A stretch of 18,224 nucleotides of DNA, taken from a virus. Lineage: Duplodnaviria; Heunggongvirae; Uroviricota; Caudoviricetes. The translations under genes were made by a program, and so were the position numbers. The stretch lies in IMG/VR virus record IMGVR_UViG_2802429235_000008; one strand, given 5' to 3'. The notes beneath the pieces were generated by a model. That model was not told the origin of the DNA and made no database searches. It saw only the letters and a list, made by a program, of their open reading frames with translations. Positions 1 through 17,918 of this stretch are shown here, in pieces; the first letter of the stretch is position 1, and each line of letters opens with the position of its first letter.

Positions 1-216
1 ATGAAATCCATGGACAAGTTAACAACGGGCATTGCCTACGGCACCTCTGCAGGCAGTGCTGGCTACTGGTTTTTACAGTGGCTTGATCAGGTCAGTCCGT
101 CACAGTGGGCGGCGATTGGAGTGCTTGGAAGCCTTGTGTTGGGTTTTCTCACTTATCTGACAAACCTTTATTTCAAGATTAAAGAAGATAAGCGTAAGGC
201 TGCGAGAGGTGAATAA
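1..216 (+). CDS. S: Class II holin (pinholin), phage 21 S-type, 71 aa
   Basis: ATG start at 1, stop TAA 214-216. Translation begins MKSM (Met1-Lys2-Ser3-Met4 dual-start motif). Two hydrophobic segments: a Gly/Ala/Ser-rich TMD1 ([19 protein letters not shown]) and TMD2 ([23 protein letters not shown]), then a charged C-terminus. Recognised from memory as near-identical to phage 21 S. Its RBS lies upstream of the window. Confidence 0.85.
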
Positions 217-713
217 TGTCGCCATCATTACGCAAGGCTGTAGCAGCTGCTATTGGTGGTGGGGCTGTTGCCATAGCGTCTGTGCTCATCACTGGTCCGA
301 GTGGTGACGATGGTCTGGAAGGTGTCAGCTACATACCATATAAAGATATCGTTGGCGTATGGACTGTATGTTACGGGCACACCGGAAAAGACATTATGCT
401 CGGTAAAACGTATACCGAAGCAGAATGCAAAACCCTCCTGAATAAAGACCTTGCCACGGTCGCCAGACAAATTAACCCGTACATCAAAGTCGATATACCG
501 GAAACAACGCGCGGTGCTCTTTACTCGTTCGTTTACAACGTGGGTGCTGGAAATTTCAGAACATCGACGCTTCTTCGCAAAATAAACCAGGGCGATATCA
601 AAGGCGTATGTGATCAGCTACGTCGCTGGACATACGCTGGCGGTAAGCAATGGAAAGGCCTGATGACTCGCCGTGAGATTGAGCGTGAAATCTGTTTGTG
701 GGGGCAGAAATGA
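216..713 (+). CDS. R: SAR endolysin, T4-lysozyme-like muramidase, 165 aa
   Basis: ATG at 216 overlaps the S stop (TAATG). N-terminal Gly/Ala-rich signal-anchor-release segment ([20 protein letters not shown]) followed by a Glu35/Asp44/Thr50 catalytic triad in the spacing expected for phage 21 R. Stop TGA 711-713. Confidence 0.85.
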
Positions 714-1171
714 GCAGAGTAACCGCGATTATCTCCGCTCTGGTTATCTGCATCATCGTCAGCCTGTCATGGGCAGTCAATTATTACCGTGATAACGCCA
801 TCTCCTACAAAGACCAGCGCGATAAAGCGAAGGAAAAACTCAGCCAGGCGAACGCCACCATTACTGACATGCAGCAGCGCCAGCGTGATGTTGCTGCACT
901 GGATGAAAAATACACGAAGGAGTTAGCTAATGCGAAAGCTGAAAATGATGCTCTGCGTGATGATGTTGCCGCTGGTCGTCGTCGGTTGCACATCAAAGCA
1001 GTCTGTCAGTCAGTGCGTGAAGCCACCACCGCCTCCGGCGTGGATAATGCAGCCTCCCCCCGACTGGCAGACACCGCTGAACGGGATTATTTCACCCTCA
1101 GAGAGAGGCTGATCACTATGCAAAAACAACTGGAAGGAACCCAGAAGTATATTAATGAGCAGTGCAGATAG
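710..1171 (+). CDS. Rz: Spanin inner-membrane subunit (i-spanin), 153 aa
   Basis: ATG at 710 overlaps the R stop (ATGA). N-terminal TMD ([20 protein letters not shown]), coiled-coil-like periplasmic region, C-terminus ...QKYINEQCR matches lambda Rz from memory. The ORF track extends to a GTG at 698, but the ATG at 710 gives the lambda-length product. Confidence 0.85.
930..1112 (+). CDS. Rz1: Spanin outer-membrane lipoprotein subunit (o-spanin), 60 aa, embedded in Rz
   Basis: ATG at 930 in the +1 frame of Rz with AAGGAG about 7 nt upstream. Signal peptide with lipobox (LVVVGC), and a proline-rich mature region ([15 protein letters not shown]). Confidence 0.8.
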
Positions 1172-1174
1172 AGC

Positions 1175-1192
1175 TGCCCATATCGATGGGCA
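1175..1192. terminator. Hairpin between convergent Rz and bor (7-bp stem TGCCCAT/ATGGGCA, 4-nt loop)
   Basis: Inverted repeat read directly from sequence between the Rz stop (1171) and bor stop (1203). No strong U-tract on either strand, so terminator function is uncertain. Confidence 0.3.
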
Positions 1193-1202
1193 ACTCATGC
1201 AA

Positions 1203-1496
1203 TTATTGTGAGCAATACACACGCGCTTCCAGCGGAGTATAAATGCCTAAAGTAATAAAACCGAGCAATCCATTTACGAATGTTTGCTGGGTTTCTGTTT
1301 TAACAACATTTTCTGCGCCGCCACAAATTTTGGCTGCATCAACAGTTTTCTCCTGTCCAATTCCCGAAACGAAGAAGTGATGGGTGATGGTTTCCTTTGG
1401 TGTTACTGCTGTCGGTTTGTTTCCAACAGTAAACGTCTGTTGAGCACATCCTGTAATAAGCATTGCCAGAGCGGCAGAAAACAACATTTTTTTCAT
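1203..1496 (-). CDS. bor: Bor outer-membrane lipoprotein (serum-resistance moron), 97 aa
   Basis: Reverse-strand ORF. Start chosen at the ATG giving MKKMLFSAALAMLITGC (signal peptide plus LITGC lipobox) with AGGA about 9 nt upstream on the mRNA. Length equals lambda Bor (97 aa) and the C-terminus ...LEARVYCSQ matches from memory. The ORF track extends to 1544 but the upstream codons lack an RBS. Confidence 0.85.
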   Translation of the reverse strand: MKKMLFSAALAMLITGCAQQTFTVGNKPTAVTPKETITHHFFVSGIGQEKTVDAAKICGGAENVVKTETQQTFVNGLLGFITLGIYTPLEARVYCSQ

Positions 1497-1660
1497 CTTA
1501 TTATCCTGCATTGTTAAAAACGGCAGAATCCTATGTGACAACAATTAAACGATAGTTAAATGGATTGATGAAAATTAAAACTATATAGGTGGATGCTCAG
1601 CCTATTGGAGGAGGGGGGCACTCAGAATCCTGTGGAATGAAATAAACCGCTCTTTCTGTC
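1497..1660 (-). promoter_or_regulatory. AT-rich region upstream of bor, probable bor promoter region
   Basis: Visibly AT-rich stretch immediately 5' of bor on the reverse strand. Bor is known to be expressed independently in lysogens. I could not pin unambiguous -35/-10 hexamers by eye. Confidence 0.25.
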
Positions 1661-13022: not shown

Positions 13023-15576
13023 ACCGGTAGGCGATCTGGTCGTTGATTTGAGTCTGGATGCGGCCAGATTTGACGAGCAGATGGCCAGAGTCAGGCGTCA
13101 TTTTTCCGGTACGGAAAGTGATGCGAAAAAAACAGCGGCAGTCGTTGAACAGTCGATGAACCGGCAGGCGCTGGCTGCACAGAAAGCGGGAATTTCCGTC
13201 GGGCAGTATAAAGCCGCCATGCGTATGCTGCCTGCGCAGTTCACTGACGTGGCCACGCAGCTTGCAGGCGGGCAAAGTCCGTGGCTGATCCTGCTGCAAC
13301 AGGGGGGTCAGGTGAAGGACTCCTTCGGCGGGATGATCCCCATGTTCCGGGGGCTTGCCGGTGCGATCACCCTGCCGATGGTGGGGGTCACCTCGCTGGC
13401 GGTGGCGACCGGTGCGCTGGCGTATGCCTGGTATCAGGGCAACTCAACCCTGTCCGATTTCAACAAAACGCTGGTCCTTTCCGGCAATCAGGCCGGGCTG
13501 ACGGCAGATCGTATGCTGGTCCTGTCCAGAGCCGGGCAGGCGGCAGGGCTGACGTTTAACCAGACCAGCGAGTCACTCAGCGCACTGGTTAAGGCGGGGG
13601 TAAGCGGTGAGGCTCAGATTGCGTCCATCAGCCAGAGTGTGGCGCGTTTCTCCTCTGCATCCGGCGTGGAGGTGGACAAGGTCGCTGAAGCCTTCGGGAA
13701 GCTGACCACTGACCCGACGTCGGGGCTGACAGCGATGGCGCGCCAGTTCCATAACGTGACGGCGGAGCAGATTGCGTATGTTGCTCAGTTGCAGCGTTCC
13801 GGCGAAGAAGCCGGGGCATTGCAGGCGGCGAACGAGGCCGCGACGAAAGGGTTTGATGACCAGACCCGCCGCCTGAAAGAGAACATGGGCACGCTGGAAA
13901 CCTGGGCAGACAGGACAGCACGGGCATTCAAATCCATGTGGGATGCGGTGCTGGATATTGGTCGTCCTGATACCGCGCAGGAGATGCTGATTAAGGCAGA
14001 GGCCGCGTTTAAGAAAGCGGACGATATCTGGAATCTGCGCAAGGATGATTATTTTGTTAACGATGAAGCGCGGGCGCGTTACTGGGATGATCGTGAAAAG
14101 GCCCGTCTTGCGCTTGAAGCCGCCCGAAAGAAGGCTGAGCAGCAGAGTCAACAGGACAAAAATGCGCAGCAGCAGAGCGATACCGAAGCGTCACGGCTGA
14201 AATATACCGAAGAGGCGCAGAAGGCTTACGAACGCCTGCAGACGCCGCTGGAGAAATATACCGCCCGTCAGGAAGAACTGAATAAGGCACTGAAAGACGG
14301 GAAAATCCTGCAGGCAGATTACAACACGCTGATGGCGGCGGCGAAAAAGGATTATGAAGCGACGCTGAAAAAGCCGAAGCAGTCCGGCGTGAAGGTGTCT
14401 GCGGGCGATCGTCAGGAAGACAGTGCTCATGCTGCCCTGCTGACGCTTCAGGCAGAACTCCGGACACTGGAGAAGCATGCCGGAGCGAATGAGAAAATCA
14501 GCCAGCAGCGCCGGGATTTATGGAAGGCAGAAAGTCAGTTCGCGGTACTGGAGGAGACAGCGCAACGTCGCCAGCTGTCTGCACAGGAGAAATCCCTGCT
14601 GGCGCATAAAGACGAGACGCTGGAGTACAAACGCCAGCTGGCTGCACTTGGTGACAAGGTTACGTATCAGGAGCGCCTGAACGCGCTGGCGCAGCAGGCG
14701 GATAAATTCGCACAGCAGCAACGGGCAAAACGGGTAGCCATTGAGGCGAAAAACCGGGGGCTGACTGACCGGCAGGCAGCGCGGGAAGCCACAGAACAGC
14801 GCCTGAAGGAACAGTATGGCGATAATCCTCTGGCGCTGAATAATGTCATGTCAGAGCAGAAAAAGACCTGGGCAGCTGAAGACCAGCTTCGCGGGAGCTG
14901 GATGGCAGCCCTGAAGTCCGGCTGGAGTGAGTGGGAAGAGAGCGCCACGGACAGTATGTCGCAGGTAAAAAGTGCAGCCACGCAGACCTTTGATGGTATT
15001 GCGCAAAATATGGCGGCGATGCTGACCGGCAGTGAACAGAACTGGCGTAGCTTCACCCGATCCGTGCTGTCCATGATGACAGAAATTCTGCTTAAGCAGG
15101 CAATGGTGGGGATTGTCGGGAGTATCGGCAGCGCCATTGGCGGTGCTACCGGTGGCGGGGCATCAGCGTCAGGTGGTACAGCCATTCAGGCCGCTGCTGC
15201 GAAACTCCATTTTGCGACCGGGGGATTTACGGGAACCGGTGGCAAATATGAACCTGCCGGGATTGTTCACCGTGGTGAATTTGTCTTCACGAAGGAGGCA
15301 ACCAGCCGGATTGGCGTGGGGAATCTCTACCGGCTGATGCGCGGCTATGCCACCGGCGGTTATGTCGGTACACCGGGCAGCATGGCGGACAGTCGGTCGC
15401 AGGCGTCCGGGAAGTTTGAGCAGAATAACCATGTGGTGATTAACAACGACGGCACGAACGGTCAGATAGGGCCACAGGCGCTGAAGGCGGTTTATGACGT
15501 AGCCCGTAAGGCGGCAATGGATGTTGTGACCGGGCAGATGCGTGATGGTGGTCTGTTCTCTGGAGGTGGACGATGA
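13015..15576 (+). CDS. H: Tail tape measure protein H, 853 aa
   Basis: ATG 13015 with AGGAGGAG SD, overlapping the T end; 853 aa as in lambda gpH; long predicted helical/coiled-coil middle and a Gly-rich C-terminal part. Confidence 0.95.
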   Translation: MAEPVGDLVVDLSLDAARFDEQMARVRRHFSGTESDAKKTAAVVEQSMNRQALAAQKAGISVGQYKAAMRMLPAQFTDVATQLAGGQSPWLILLQQGGQVKDSFGGMIPMFRGLAGAITLPMVGVTSLAVATGALAYAWYQGNSTLSDFNKTLVLSGNQAGLTADRMLVLSRAGQAAGLTFNQTSESLSALVKAGVSGEAQIASISQSVARFSSASGVEVDKVAEAFGKLTTDPTSGLTAMARQFHNVTAEQIAYVAQLQRSGEEAGALQAANEAATKGFDDQTRRLKENMGTLETWADRTARAFKSMWDAVLDIGRPDTAQEMLIKAEAAFKKADDIWNLRKDDYFVNDEARARYWDDREKARLALEAARKKAEQQSQQDKNAQQQSDTEASRLKYTEEAQKAYERLQTPLEKYTARQEELNKALKDGKILQADYNTLMAAAKKDYEATLKKPKQSGVKVSAGDRQEDSAHAALLTLQAELRTLEKHAGANEKISQQRRDLWKAESQFAVLEETAQRRQLSAQEKSLLAHKDETLEYKRQLAALGDKVTYQERLNALAQQADKFAQQQRAKRVAIEAKNRGLTDRQAAREATEQRLKEQYGDNPLALNNVMSEQKKTWAAEDQLRGSWMAALKSGWSEWEESATDSMSQVKSAATQTFDGIAQNMAAMLTGSEQNWRSFTRSVLSMMTEILLKQAMVGIVGSIGSAIGGATGGGASASGGTAIQAAAAKLHFATGGFTGTGGKYEPAGIVHRGEFVFTKEATSRIGVGNLYRLMRGYATGGYVGTPGSMADSRSQASGKFEQNNHVVINNDGTNGQIGPQALKAVYDVARKAAMDVVTGQMRDGGLFSGGGR

Positions 15577-15902
15577 AAACCTTCCGCTGGAAAGTGAAAC
15601 CGGGTATGGATGTGGCTTCGACTCCTTCCGTCAGGGAGGTGCGCTTTGGTGATGGTTACTCCCAGCGCGCGCCTGCCGGGCTGAATGCCAACCTGAAAAC
15701 GTACAGCGTGACGATTTCTGTCCCCCGTTGGGAGGCCACGGCGCTGGAATCGTTTCTGGCAGAGCACGGAGGCTGGAAAGCCTTTCTGTGGACGCCGCCT
15801 TATGACTGGCGGCAGATAAAGGTGATCTGCGCAAAATGGACGTCGCGGGTCAGTATGCTGCGTGTTGAGTTCAGCGCAGAGTTTAAACAGGTGGTGAACT
15901 GA
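15573..15902 (+). CDS. M: Tail tip protein M, 109 aa
   Basis: ATG 15573 overlaps the H stop (ATGA), GGAGGTGGA SD; recognised as lambda gpM. Confidence 0.9.
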   Translation: MKTFRWKVKPGMDVASTPSVREVRFGDGYSQRAPAGLNANLKTYSVTISVPRWEATALESFLAEHGGWKAFLWTPPYDWRQIKVICAKWTSRVSMLRVEFSAEFKQVVN

Positions 15903-16600
15903 TGCAGGATATCCGGCAGGAAACACTGAATGAATGCACCCGTGCGGAGCAGTCGGCCAGCGTGGTGCTCTGGGAAATCGATCTGACAGAGGTCGGTGGT
16001 GAACGTTATTTTTTCTGTAATGAGCAGAACGAAAAAGGTGAGCCGGTTACCTGGCAGGGGCGGCAGTATCTGGCGTATCCCATTCAGGGGAGTGGTTTTG
16101 AACTGAATGGCAAAGGCACCAGTACGCGCCCCACGCTGGCAGTCTCTAACCTGTACGGCATGGTCACCGGGATGGCGGAAGATCTGCAGAGTCTGGTCGG
16201 CGGAACGGTGGTCAGGCGTAAGGTTTACGCCCGTTTTCTGGATGCGGTGAACTTCGTCAACGGAAACAGTGATGCCGATCCGGAGCAGGAGGTGATCAGC
16301 CGCTGGCGCATCGAGCAGTGCAGCGAACTGAGCGCGGTCAGTGCCTCCTTTGTGTTGTCCACACCAACGGAAACGGATGGTGCTGTTTTTCCGGGGCGCA
16401 TCATGCTGGCCAACACCTGCACCTGGACCTATCGCGGTGATGAGTGCGGTTATAACGGTCCGGCTGTCGCTGATGAATATGACCAGCCGACGTCCGATAT
16501 CACGAAGGATAAATGCAGCAAATGCCTGAGTGGCTGTAAGTTTCGCAATAACGTCGGCAACTTTGGCGGCTTCCTTTCCATTAACAAACTTTCGCAGTAA
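15902..16600 (+). CDS. L: Tail tip protein L, 232 aa, with C-terminal Cys cluster
   Basis: ATG 15902 overlaps the M stop (TGATG); 232 aa. C-terminal cysteines (CTWTYRGDECGYNG...DKCSKCLSGCKF) are consistent with the iron-sulfur cluster reported for lambda gpL. Confidence 0.9.
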   Translation: MQDIRQETLNECTRAEQSASVVLWEIDLTEVGGERYFFCNEQNEKGEPVTWQGRQYLAYPIQGSGFELNGKGTSTRPTLAVSNLYGMVTGMAEDLQSLVGGTVVRRKVYARFLDAVNFVNGNSDADPEQEVISRWRIEQCSELSAVSASFVLSTPTETDGAVFPGRIMLANTCTWTYRGDECGYNGPAVADEYDQPTSDITKDKCSKCLSGCKFRNNVGNFGGFLSINKLSQ

Positions 16601-16605
16601 ATCCC

Positions 16606-17349
16606 ATGACAGAGACAGAATCAGCGATTCTGGCGCACGCCCGGCGATGTGCGCCAGCGGAGTCGTGCGGCTTCGTGGTGAGAACGCCGGAGGGAGACAG
16701 ATATCTTCCCTGCGTAAATATCTCTGGTGAGCCGGAGGAGTATTTCCGGATGTCGCCGGAGGACTGGTTGCGGGCAGAAATGCAGGGTGAGATTGTGGCG
16801 CTGGTGCACAGCCATCCCGGTGGTCTGCTCTGGCTGAGTGAGGCCGACCGGCGACTGCAGGTGCAGAGTGATTTGCCGTGGTGGCTGGTCTGCCGGGGGG
16901 CGATTCATAAGTTCCGCTGTGTGCCGCATCTCACCGGGCGGCGCTTTGAGCACGGGGTGACGGACTGTTACACGCTGTTCCGGGATGCTTATCATCTGGC
17001 GGGGATTGAGATGCCGGATTTTCATCGCGAGGATGACTGGTGGCGTAACGGTCAGAATCTCTATCTGGATAATCTGGAGGCCACAGGGCTGTATCAGGTG
17101 CCGTTGTCATCAGCACAACCGGGCGATGTGCTGCTGTGCTGTTTTGGTTCATCGGTGCCGAATCATGCCGCCATTTACTGTGGTGACGGCGAGCTGCTGC
17201 ACCATATTCCTGAACAACTGAGTAAACGAGAGAGGTATACCGACAAATGGCAGCGACGCACACACTCCCTCTGGCGTCACCGGGCATGGCGCGCATCTGC
17301 CTTTACGGGGATTTACAACGATTTGGCCGCCGCATCGACCTTCGTGTGA
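16606..17349 (+). CDS. K: Tail tip assembly protein K, 247-aa form with JAB/MPN and NlpC/P60 motifs
   Basis: ATG 16606, 6 nt after the L stop; frame open to 17349. N-terminal HARRCAPAESCGF (ExCG-type) followed by HSHPGGLLWLSEAD (HxH...S..D JAMM motif); NlpC/P60-like Cys (VTDCYTLF) and His (PNHAAIY) downstream. The classical lambda K start corresponds to the internal ATG at 16750 (MSPEDW...). Confidence 0.8.
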   Translation: MTETESAILAHARRCAPAESCGFVVRTPEGDRYLPCVNISGEPEEYFRMSPEDWLRAEMQGEIVALVHSHPGGLLWLSEADRRLQVQSDLPWWLVCRGAIHKFRCVPHLTGRRFEHGVTDCYTLFRDAYHLAGIEMPDFHREDDWWRNGQNLYLDNLEATGLYQVPLSSAQPGDVLLCCFGSSVPNHAAIYCGDGELLHHIPEQLSKRERYTDKWQRRTHSLWRHRAWRASAFTGIYNDLAAASTFV

Positions 17350-17918
17350 AAACGGGGGCTGAAGCCATCCGGGCACTGGCCACACAGCTCCCGGCGTTTC
17401 GTCAGAAACTGAGCGACGGCTGGTATCAGGTACGGATTGCCGGGCGGGATGTCAGCACGTCCGGGTTAACGGCGCAGTTACATGAGACTCTGCCTGATGG
17501 CGCTGTGATTCATATTGTTCCCAGAGTCGCCGGGGCCAAGTCAGGTGGTGTATTCCAGATTGTCCTGGGAGCAGCCGCCATTGCCGGATCATTCTTTACC
17601 GCCGGAGCCACCCTTGCAGCATGGGGGGCTGCCATTGGTGCCGGTGGTATGACCGGCATTCTGTTTTCTCTCGGTGCCAGTATGGTGCTCGGCGGTGTGG
17701 CTCAGATGCTGGCACCGAAAGCCAGAACTCCCCGCACACAGACAACGGATAACGGTAAGCAGAACACCTATTTCTCCTCACTGGATAACATGGTTGCCCA
17801 GGGCAATGTCCTGCCTGTTCTGTACGGTGAAATGCGCGTGGGGTCACGTGTGGCATCTCAGGAGATCAGCACGGCAGATGAAGGGGACGGTGGTCAGGTT
17901 GTGGTGATTGGTCGATGA
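17247..17918 (+). CDS. I: Tail tip assembly protein I, 223 aa
   Basis: ATG 17247 with GAGAGG SD, 103-nt out-of-frame overlap with the K 3' end; 223 aa as in lambda gpI; hydrophobic Gly/Ala-rich C-terminal half. Confidence 0.9.
   Translation: MAATHTLPLASPGMARICLYGDLQRFGRRIDLRVKTGAEAIRALATQLPAFRQKLSDGWYQVRIAGRDVSTSGLTAQLHETLPDGAVIHIVPRVAGAKSGGVFQIVLGAAAIAGSFFTAGATLAAWGAAIGAGGMTGILFSLGASMVLGGVAQMLAPKARTPRTQTTDNGKQNTYFSSLDNMVAQGNVLPVLYGEMRVGSRVASQEISTADEGDGGQVVVIGR

What the first reader, a model, noticed from the sequence alone, without database searches (positions are those of the whole stretch)
16601..16752. K reading frame is open from just after L; the classical short K start is 48 codons inside it
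The frame containing K is open from the ATG at 16606 (6 nt after the L stop) and the added 48 codons carry an ExCG-type motif (AESCGF). Together with the downstream HSHPGGLLWLSEAD this completes a JAB/MPN (JAMM) metalloprotease signature, so the long form is the one with an intact N-terminal domain. By my recollection of lambda coordinates (L 13429-14127, K 14276-14875, I 14773-15444), the L-to-K-ATG interval is 1 nt longer here than in the lambda reference. That would put the reference upstream region out of frame and explain its apparently non-coding 148-nt gap in an otherwise tightly packed operon. Either this phage carries the intact ancestral K and the reference is frameshifted, or my coordinates are off by one.
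Basis: partly seen in the sequence, partly recalled or inferred. Interest (0 to 1): 0.5.

Follow-up and report, generated by a model that had tools for sequence, protein, structure and literature searches.

The report
Full-length lambda tail gene K
The tail-assembly gene K of this lambda-like phage really is 247 codons long and encodes two complete peptidase domains. The textbook 199-codon K of the lambda reference sequence is an artefact of one G missing from that 1982 record, a useful correction but not new biology.

Summary
Window 16606-17349 (+) is an open 247-codon frame that starts 5 nt after the L stop. The classical K ATG (16750) is codon 49.

The extra 48 codons are coding. Their dN/dS is 0.06-0.15, the same as the rest of K, and variable sites fall 5/3/18 by codon position. 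They supply the N-terminal helix, two strands and the invariant Glu19 of a JAB/MPN (JAMM) domain. The motif E19...H68-x-H70-x7-S78-x2-D81 is complete. An NlpC/P60 domain follows (C121, H187, H199).

Homologs down to 35% identity are about 230-270 aa and align from residue 3-10. Codon 49 is Ile in 17 of 30 homologs.

The lambda reference (J02459/NC_001416) lacks one G after base 14266, which corresponds to window 16740. Independent assemblies carry that G: lambda cI857 ind1 Sam7, an Ur-lambda-like stock, lambda gt10, DE3, imm21/imm434 hybrids and the J53 lysogen. No complete E. coli genome matches the reference allele. The reference is therefore almost certainly a record error, not an ancestral/derived polymorphism.

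The long K is already annotated in RefSeq and several GenBank records, and the JAB+NlpC/P60 architecture was published in 2006. Novelty is low, but recent papers still use the 199-aa form.

The parts
15902..16600 (+). Gene L (minor tail protein L, 232 aa). Its TAA stop (16598-16600) lies 5 nt before the K start.
   Evidence: ORF list. Pfam Phage_tail_L, 332 bits. Same length as lambda L.
16598..16608 (+). L-stop/K-start junction TAAATCCCATG. There is no Shine-Dalgarno sequence here, so initiation probably depends on coupling to termination of L (inferred).
   Evidence: The best anti-SD duplex upstream of 16606 is +0.7 kcal/mol, against -7 to -11 for M, L, H and Z. The junction is conserved, with spacers of 4, 5 or 10 nt in phage 21, lambda and Stx phages.
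16606..17349 (+). Full-length gene K: a 247-aa tail tip assembly protein with a JAB/MPN (JAMM) domain followed by an NlpC/P60 (C40) peptidase domain.
   Evidence: ORF. Pfam PF14464 (res 4-98) plus PF00877 (res 111-224), both above cut-off. Close homologs are overwhelmingly 242-249 aa with both domains. Distant representatives align from residue 3-10.
16606..16749 (+). The 48 N-terminal codons absent from the classical K. They encode helix 3-15 and strands 21-27 and 30-36 of the MPN fold, and the conserved P-x-E-S-C-G motif with catalytic-type Glu19 (codon 16660-16662).
   Evidence: dN/dS is 0.06-0.15 between the lambda and Stx groups, and variable sites by codon position are 5/3/18. E19, C21 and G22 are invariant in 30/30 homologs. 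AF2 pLDDT is about 90 over residues 1-30. PDB 2kks aligns from residue 4.
16740..16740 (+). The G that corresponds to the base missing from the lambda reference J02459/NC_001416 (between reference bases 14266 and 14267).
   Evidence: Alignment. Whole-genome comparisons. Published variant table '14266 C>CG' for lambda gt10 (PMC6760142).
16734..16752 (+). Internal SD-like GGAGGAG (16734-16740) and the classical K start ATG (16750-16752, codon Met49).
   Evidence: Anti-SD duplex -9.5 kcal/mol, 10 nt from the ATG. Codon 49 is ATT/ATC (Ile) in Stx-phage relatives and Ile in 17/30 homologs, so this start is not conserved.
16807..16848 (+). JAMM metal-binding motif H68-S-H70-x7-S78-x2-D81 (HSHPGGLLWLSEAD).
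   Evidence: Read from the sequence. H68, H70, S78 and D81 are kept in 29/30 homologs.
16936..17277 (+). NlpC/P60 (C40) cysteine-peptidase domain, residues 111-224. The candidate triad is C121 (16966-16968), H187 and H199.
   Evidence: Pfam PF00877, 49.3 bits, model 1-105 of 105. C121, H187 and H199 are invariant in 30/30 homologs. Foldseek matches MepS and C. difficile autolysins.
17247..17918 (+). Gene I (223 aa), which overlaps the last 103 nt of K in another frame. It has an N-terminal ubiquitin-like domain (res 14-97), a Gly-rich hydrophobic linker and a C-terminal plug domain. It is the proposed substrate or partner of K.
   Evidence: ORF. Pfam Lambda_tail_I covers res 14-97. SD -9.3 kcal/mol upstream of 17247. 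Iyer et al. 2006 (PMC1779556). Only gpI residues 134/135-223 are resolved in virions.

Best explanation
Window 16606-17349 is the complete gene K of a lambda-type tail operon. It is translated from the ATG 5 nt after the L stop, most likely by termination-reinitiation coupling, because there is no Shine-Dalgarno sequence there (inferred). The product is a 247-aa protein with two peptidase domains.

- The N-terminal domain is a JAB/MPN+ (JAMM) zinc metallo-isopeptidase domain with E19, H68, H70, S78 and D81.
- The C-terminal domain is an NlpC/P60 cysteine peptidase domain with C121, H187 and H199.

The 199-aa 'classical' K is not a biological isoform defined by evidence. It is the best ORF available in a reference record (J02459/NC_001416) that lacks one G after base 14266. 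That missing base splits the gene into a 76-aa fragment and a 199-aa fragment.

For function I follow Iyer et al. 2006; this step is inferred and not shown here. K is a non-virion assembly enzyme. Its JAB domain would act on the ubiquitin-like N-terminal domain of the neighbouring gene product I, cleaving at or near its ...AGAKSGG end. This leaves the C-terminal plug domain of gpI in the tail tip. The NlpC/P60 domain would be a second processing activity.
For: Coding status of the N-terminal extension:
- The frame is open from 16606.
- dN/dS for codons 2-48 is 0.06-0.15 between the lambda and Stx-phage groups, against 0.11-0.14 for codons 49-247. Variable sites by codon position are 5/3/18.
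- Eighteen N-terminal residues are invariant across 13 homologs down to 67% identity.

Domain integrity:
- Prok-JAB covers residues 4-98 only in the long form. The short form falls below the Pfam cut-off.
- The PDB JAB protein 2kks aligns to residues 4-107.
- The AF2 model places helix 3-15 and strands 21-27 and 30-36 at pLDDT about 90.
- The best structural match is Pyrococcus JAMM1 bound to ubiquitin-like SAMP2 (TM 0.65 on the target), followed by Rpn11, CSN5 and AMSH.

Family norm:
- Clusters with thousands of members are 247 aa with PF14464 plus PF00877.
- Representatives at 35-60% identity are 227-271 aa and align from query residue 3-10.
- Met49 is Ile in 17/30 homologs.

Reference error:
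- The indel is located.
- Only J02459, NC_001416 and two derivative records share the allele among 221 phage records.
- MW057783, which is lambda cI857 ind1 Sam7, differs from J02459 at exactly 6 sites, and one is this +G.
- LC730321 and lambda gt10 (PMC6760142) carry the same two indels.
- The best match in 5,426 E. coli genomes is 99.7%, the +G allele.
- PGAP annotates a 744-nt K in the J53 lambda lysogen (WP_000194780.1).

Functional context:
- gpK is absent from virions.
- Only gpI residues 134/135-223 are seen in tails.
Against: - There is no Shine-Dalgarno sequence upstream of 16606 (+0.7 kcal/mol). A strong one (-9.5 kcal/mol, 10-nt spacing) precedes the internal ATG at 16750. On initiation signals alone the short start looks better, and some short product may be made.
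- One GenBank record with the Sam7 marker (OR974322) keeps the reference allele, so a real deletion in some stock is not strictly excluded.
- No protein-level evidence for the size of gpK (N-terminal sequence, mass) was found.
- The catalytic activities and the gpI substrate are predictions. The unresolved N-terminus of gpI in cryo-EM maps does not prove cleavage.
Confidence: 0.93

Rival explanations
1. The one-base deletion is a genuine mutation in the lambda stock that Sanger's group sequenced. On this view the 199-aa, NlpC/P60-only K made from the internal ATG is enough for tail assembly, and the JAB half is dispensable.
For: - OR974322 carries Sam7 yet has the reference allele at 14266.
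- The internal ATG has a strong SD.
- Iyer et al. 2006 noted some prophage K versions with only an NlpC/P60 domain.
Against: - MW057783 carries all four cI857 ind1 Sam7 markers and has the G.
- OR974322 also keeps the reference base at 138, where every independent assembly differs. It lacks the cI857, ind1 and 43082 markers and keeps reference coordinates throughout, which suggests a reference-guided consensus.
- No E. coli genome has the allele.
- The JAB residues are under purifying selection.
Confidence: 0.05
2. Both products are made in the lambda subgroup: full-length K from 16606, plus a nested NlpC/P60-only protein from the internal SD and ATG at 16750. This would be analogous to the nested C/Nu3 genes of lambda.
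For: GGAGGAG sits 10 nt upstream of ATG 16750, with a -9.5 kcal/mol duplex. The ATG is present in the window, lambda and phage 21.
Against: - Codon 49 is ATT/ATC in Stx-phage relatives that keep GGAGG, and Ile in 17/30 homologs. The start is therefore not conserved.
- GGAGG is explained by the conserved Glu-Pro-Glu codons.
- A product starting at residue 49 would carry half of an MPN fold.
- No experimental evidence for two K products was found.
Confidence: 0.15
3. The upstream 48 codons are open by chance and the region is a non-coding L-K spacer, as drawn on classical lambda maps.
For: This is the classical annotation, still copied into some new records that carry the G, such as OM418625 and DE3. 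There is no SD at 16606.
Against: - Third-position bias and low dN/dS.
- Invariant motif residues.
- A Pfam match on the 48 residues alone (24.3 bits, E 3e-5), and a full-domain match only with them included.
- Distant homologs align from their N-termini.
Confidence: 0.01

Closest known systems
Lambda tail tip assembly protein K as annotated in resequenced genomes and RefSeq (WP_000194780.1 in E. coli J53; PV340536; MW057783; phage 21 OL657228): 247 aa, 'C40 family peptidase'
   Same: Same gene position (L-K-I-J), same length, 96% protein identity to lambda K, the same start 4-5 nt after the L stop, and the same two Pfam domains.
   Different: Only allelic differences of about 4% at the protein level. 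Nothing differs structurally.
Lambda reference K (NP_040598.1 / AAA96551.1, 199 aa; J02459 14276-14875)
   Same: Identical reading frame and about 96% identity over residues 49-247.
   Different: It lacks residues 1-48 because the record is missing a G after 14266. It keeps only Prok-JAB model positions 63-103 and loses the catalytic-type Glu.
[quoted passage not shown]
   Same: JAB plus NlpC/P60 protein encoded next to a ubiquitin-like TAPI protein and TAPJ. The prediction is that the JAB domain releases the Ub-like domain at its C-terminal glycine.
   Different: None in architecture. The paper does not mention the reference-sequence error in the passages retrieved.
Archaeal/prokaryotic JAMM desampylases (Pyrococcus furiosus JAMM1, PDB 5lda; Haloferax HvJAMM1-type 'desampylase' NF041370)
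   Same: MPN+ fold and the E...HxHx7Sx2D motif. It is the top structural match, TM 0.65 normalised to the target, with a weak NCBIfam hit over residues 3-114.
   Different: Only 20-25% identity. The NCBIfam score (25 bits) is far below the equivalog cut-off (130). K is fused to an NlpC/P60 domain and works in phage tail assembly, not SAMP recycling.

Membership tests
JAB/MPN+ (JAMM) metallopeptidase domain (Pfam Prok-JAB PF14464) | Profile match above the curated cut-off across the whole domain | tested here: met
   49.6 bits against a cut-off of 25, residues 4-98, model 4-103 of 114. The 199-aa form scores 19.7 bits and fails.
JAB/MPN+ (JAMM) metallopeptidase domain (Pfam Prok-JAB PF14464) | JAMM motif: an upstream Glu plus H-x-H-x7-S-x2-D | tested here: met
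   E19 and H68-S-H70-PGGLLWL-S78-EA-D81 read from the sequence. E19 is kept in 30/30 homologs and H68, H70, S78 and D81 in 29/30.
JAB/MPN+ (JAMM) metallopeptidase domain (Pfam Prok-JAB PF14464) | MPN alpha/beta fold | tested here: met
   AF2 model with mean pLDDT 79. Foldseek top hits are PfJAMM1 5lda/5ld9, 2kks, Rpn11, CSN5 and AMSH, all at probability 1.00.
JAB/MPN+ (JAMM) metallopeptidase domain (Pfam Prok-JAB PF14464) | Zn2+ binding and (iso)peptidase activity | not testable with these tools
   Needs purified 247-aa gpK, metal analysis and a cleavage assay.
NlpC/P60 (MEROPS C40) peptidase domain (PF00877) | Profile match above cut-off, and a conserved Cys-His-His/polar catalytic triad | tested here: met
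   49.3 bits against a cut-off of 23, residues 111-224, model 1-105 of 105. C121, H187 and H199 are invariant in 30/30 homologs.
Lambda-type tail assembly protein K (TAPK) | Encoded between L and I/J of a lambda-like tail-tip cluster, about 245 aa, with the JAB plus NlpC/P60 architecture | tested here: met
   Gene order M-L-K-I in the window. 96% identity to lambda K translated from DE3. Homolog lengths and domains.
Lambda-type tail assembly protein K (TAPK) | Required for tail assembly but absent from the virion | not testable with these tools
   Known for lambda from the literature. Not testable for this phage from sequence.

The most novel reading that the evidence does not exclude
In the lambda subgroup (this window, lambda, phage 21) the internal SD and ATG at codon 49 may be used as well as the upstream start. 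K would then be a nested gene pair, giving a full-length JAB-NlpC/P60 enzyme and a separate NlpC/P60-only protein whose ratio matters for tail-tip assembly. The evidence here argues against conservation of this start. It does not exclude its use in this subgroup.
Probability: 0.12. Interest if true: 0.4.

Novelty: already known. Interest (0 to 1): 0.3.

Why it matters

Work that starts from NC_001416 or NP_040598 inherits a K lacking the first 48 residues, so half of its JAMM domain and the catalytic-type Glu are missing.
- A 2020 review analysed 'gpK ... 199 in total' and found only the NlpC/P60 domain (PMC7291167).
- A 2025 screen lists NP_040598.1, the 199-aa reference protein, as the accession for the gpK it expressed (PMC12236752).

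Using the 247-aa protein is a precondition for testing two ideas. One is the 2006 prediction that K processes the ubiquitin-like domain of gpI. The other is whether K is the unknown protease behind gpH to gpH* cleavage (that link is my speculation). The case also warns that a 'non-coding gap' in a tightly packed operon of an old reference can be a one-base record error.

Tried and rejected
- I tried to read Casjens and Hendrix 2015 (PMC4424060 / PMID 25742714) to see whether the K error is noted there. The paper is not held.
- Full-text searches found no explicit statement that reference K is truncated by a sequence error. The term sets were gpK/lambda/JAB, J02459/sequencing error/gene K, gpK/gpI/gpL/MPN, gene K/frameshift/reference sequence, and gpK/lambda/tail/error. 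The only hit for the variant itself was the MutaMouse lambda gt10 table.
- I expected LC730321 (48,503 bp) to be commercial cI857 Sam7 DNA. It is an Ur-lambda-like cI+ S+ stock, so it could not by itself separate a strain mutation from a record error. MW057783 did that.
- OR974322 and OR474059 share the reference allele. I could not establish how they were assembled. I treat them as probably reference-derived and not as independent evidence.
- NCBIfam gave only sub-threshold hits (desampylase 25 bits, phage_NlpC_fam 23 bits). It adds nothing beyond Pfam.
- The minus-strand ORFs across the region (16621-17025 and 16931-17296) are mechanical ORFs with no supporting evidence, and I did not pursue them.
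- From memory only, not verified here: breseq example output for lambda lists '14,266 +G intergenic L/K' as an ancestral difference from NC_001416.

Full report
**What is in the window**

The region is the M-L-K-I part of a lambda-type tail operon.
- L is 15902-16600 (232 aa; Pfam Phage_tail_L, 332 bits).
- Five nucleotides later, at 16606, an ATG opens a 247-codon frame that ends at 17349.
- The ATG at 16750, which corresponds to the classical lambda K start, is codon 49 of that frame.
- I (17247-17918) overlaps the end of K in another frame.
- The DNA is about 96% identical to many lambda-like phages over L-K-I.

**The comparison with the lambda reference**

The L-stop to classical-ATG interval is 148 nt in the reference and 149 nt here.

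I aligned the window, NC_001416, phage DE3 (a lambda derivative) and phage 21. The difference is a single position: the reference reads GGAGGC-TATTTCC where the others read GGAGGCGTATTTCC or GGAGGAGTATTTCC. The base is window 16740, and it falls between reference bases 14266 and 14267.

In the reference, the ATG at 14133 opens a 76-aa ORF. That ORF begins MTQTESAILAHARRCAPAESCGFVVSTPEGERYFPCVNISGEPEA and then leaves the frame. This is why the reference appears to have a 148-nt non-coding gap.

**Is the reference allele real or a record error?**

- *Phage records.* Of 221 phage records matching this stretch, only four are 100% identical to the reference: J02459, NC_001416, an unverified unannotated engineered-strain record (OR474059) and OR974322. 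All other lambda stocks carry the extra G. They include KT232076, LC730321, PV340536, lambda imm21/imm434/h434 imm21, DE3, DN1 and HK629/HK630.
- *Whole-genome comparison.* MW057783 is deposited as 'Campylobacter phage CJLB-4' but is plainly lambda. It differs from J02459 at exactly six sites: 37589 C>T, 37742 C>T, 43082 G>A, 45352 G>A, a deleted G at 138 and the inserted G after 14266. As I recall them, the four substitutions are the markers of lambda cI857 ind1 Sam7. The split S gene in that record's annotation fits Sam7. So an independent assembly of the very strain that was sequenced in 1982 has the G.
- *Other independent stocks.* LC730321, an Ur-lambda-like cI+ S+ stock, has the same two indels. 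The lambda gt10 transgene of MutaMouse lists '137 AG>A' and '14266 C>CG' in every copy (PMC6760142).
- *E. coli genomes.* In 5,426 complete genomes (10,747 matching places) the best matches are 99.7%, which is the +G allele. None is 100%.
- *The one exception.* OR974322 shares the reference allele and has Sam7. It also keeps the reference base at 138, lacks the other three strain markers and follows reference coordinates. I regard it as probably a reference-guided consensus, but I cannot prove that.

Overall the missing G is very probably an error of the record, and lambda's own K is 247 aa.

**Are the 48 extra codons coding?**

I compared eight K alleles: the window, lambda/DE3, phage 21 and five Stx-type phages.
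- Between the lambda and Stx groups, codons 2-48 have dS of about 0.45-0.62 and dN of about 0.03-0.10. That gives dN/dS of 0.06-0.15, indistinguishable from codons 49-247 (0.11-0.14).
- Variable sites fall 5/3/18 on codon positions 1/2/3.

At the protein level:
- 13 homologs down to 67% identity (Salmonella, Citrobacter, Edwardsiella) share I8, L9, H11, A12, A16, P17, E19, S20, C21, G22, V24, Y33, P35, N38, S40, E42, Y46 and F47.
- In the all-against-all representative library, full-length relatives at 35-60% identity are 227-271 aa long and align from query residues 3-10.
- Close homologs form clusters with thousands of members at 247 aa carrying PF14464 plus PF00877. The 199-aa entries carry PF00877 only.

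**Domain integrity**

- *Profile match.* Pfam Prok-JAB matches residues 4-98 of the long form (model 4-103 of 114, 49.6 bits, cut-off 25). The short form keeps only model 63-103 and scores 19.7 bits, below cut-off. The 48-residue piece alone scores 24.3 bits.
- *Solved structures by sequence.* A profile of the family finds the solved JAB protein 2kks over residues 4-107.
- *Predicted structure.* An AlphaFold2 model (30-sequence alignment, mean pLDDT 79) places helix 3-15 and strands 21-27 and 30-36 at pLDDT of about 90. A protein beginning at Met49 would lack these core elements.
- *Fold search.* Foldseek against the PDB ranks Pyrococcus furiosus JAMM1 first, solved with the ubiquitin-like SAMP2. 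2kks, Rpn11, CSN5 and AMSH follow, and NlpC/P60 hydrolases match the C-terminal half.
- *Catalytic motifs.* The JAMM motif is complete: E19...H68-x-H70-x7-S78-x2-D81. E19 is kept in 30/30 homologs and the others in 29/30. The NlpC/P60 triad candidates C121, H187 and H199 are kept in 30/30.

**The start codon**

There is no Shine-Dalgarno sequence before 16606 (best duplex +0.7 kcal/mol). GGAGGAG sits 10 nt before the internal ATG (-9.5 kcal/mol). That is presumably why the internal ATG was chosen in 1982. It is also the one piece of evidence that favours, or at least permits, a short product.

Two points weigh against the internal ATG being the conserved start.
- Codon 49 is ATT/ATC in the Stx-phage alleles, which retain GGAGG. 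It is Ile in 17 of 30 homologs.
- GGAGG is accounted for by the conserved Glu-Pro-Glu codons.

The L stop and the K ATG are always 4, 5 or 10 nt apart. Neighbouring genes in this operon overlap or abut (H/M overlap by 4 nt, M/L by 1 nt). Termination-reinitiation coupling is therefore the likely mechanism. This is inferred, not shown.

**How it most likely works**

- *Shown here.* K is a complete two-peptidase protein encoded next to I.
- *From the literature.* gpK is needed for tail assembly but is not found in virions (PMC10721106; PMC12617516). gpI has an N-terminal ubiquitin-like beta-grasp domain ending in glycine. Iyer, Burroughs and Aravind predicted that the JAB domain of K releases it (PMC1779556). 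Only gpI residues 134/135-223 are resolved in the tail tip.
- *In this window.* Pfam Lambda_tail_I covers I residues 14-97, and the domain ends in ...PRVAGAKSGG, followed by a Gly/Ala-rich hydrophobic linker.
- *My inference.* K acts as an assembly-time protease or isopeptidase on gpI. The cleavage of gpH to gpH*, whose catalyst is unknown, is a second candidate substrate. That idea is speculation.

**Comparison with what is known, and novelty**

The JAB plus NlpC/P60 architecture of the K family was published in 2006. The 247-aa lambda K is already annotated by PGAP in lysogens (WP_000194780.1) and by submitters of PV340536, MW057783 and phage 21. The +G variant sits in a published table. The finding is therefore already known in substance.

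I did not find, in the searchable literature, an explicit statement that the canonical 199-aa K (NP_040598) is an artefact of a record error. The short form remains in use in several places.
- It is copied into new records that contain the G (OM418625, DE3).
- It is quoted as '199 in total' in a 2020 review, which consequently saw only the NlpC/P60 domain.
- NP_040598.1 is the accession given for gpK in a 2025 expression screen.

The practical value is a correction to a heavily used reference. The biology is ordinary for the family.

**Verdict**

Interest is 0.3.

Noticed in passing
window 17247-17918 (gene I); alternative GTG at 17346: Gene I has the mirror-image annotation problem. PGAP and several submitters start I at the GTG overlapping the K stop (190 aa; J53, PV340536, KT232076, JLK-2012). 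The Pfam Lambda_tail_I (ubiquitin-like) model covers residues 14-97 of the 223-aa form but only model positions 26-83 in the 190-aa form. ATG 17247 has a good SD (-9.3 kcal/mol) and the GTG has none. The 190-aa annotation probably truncates the Ub-like domain.
   Followed up: partly
lambda reference J02459 position 138 (outside the window's K region; locus L012): A second single-base discrepancy travels with the K one. The G at reference 138, near cos, is absent from MW057783, LC730321 and MutaMouse lambda gt10. J02459 therefore probably has two indel errors that cancel in total length.
   Followed up: partly
locus L013 (MW057783.1): A GenBank record named 'Campylobacter phage CJLB-4' from poultry faeces is lambda cI857 ind1 Sam7, with 6 differences from J02459 over 48.4 kb. 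It is presumably laboratory or spike-in DNA and not a Campylobacter phage. OR974322 ('cloacal swabs') is likewise lambda with Sam7.
   Followed up: partly
window 216-1544: The window starts in the lysis region: endolysin (Phage_lysozyme, 216-713), Rz (698-1171) and Bor on the minus strand (1203-1544). It then runs through the cos/terminase region into head and tail genes. The sequence is therefore in prophage or circularly joined order, not the linear virion order.
   Followed up: partly
loci L016-L019 (Stx-type phages), upstream of K: In several Stx-type phages the K reading frame happens to stay open for about 170-230 nt upstream of the conserved MTQ start, overlapping the 3' end of L in another frame. 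Mechanical ORF calls there give 304-325 aa. Over-long K entries (for example 325 aa 'Mov34/MPN/PAD-1 family protein') in the protein search probably come from this.
   Followed up: no
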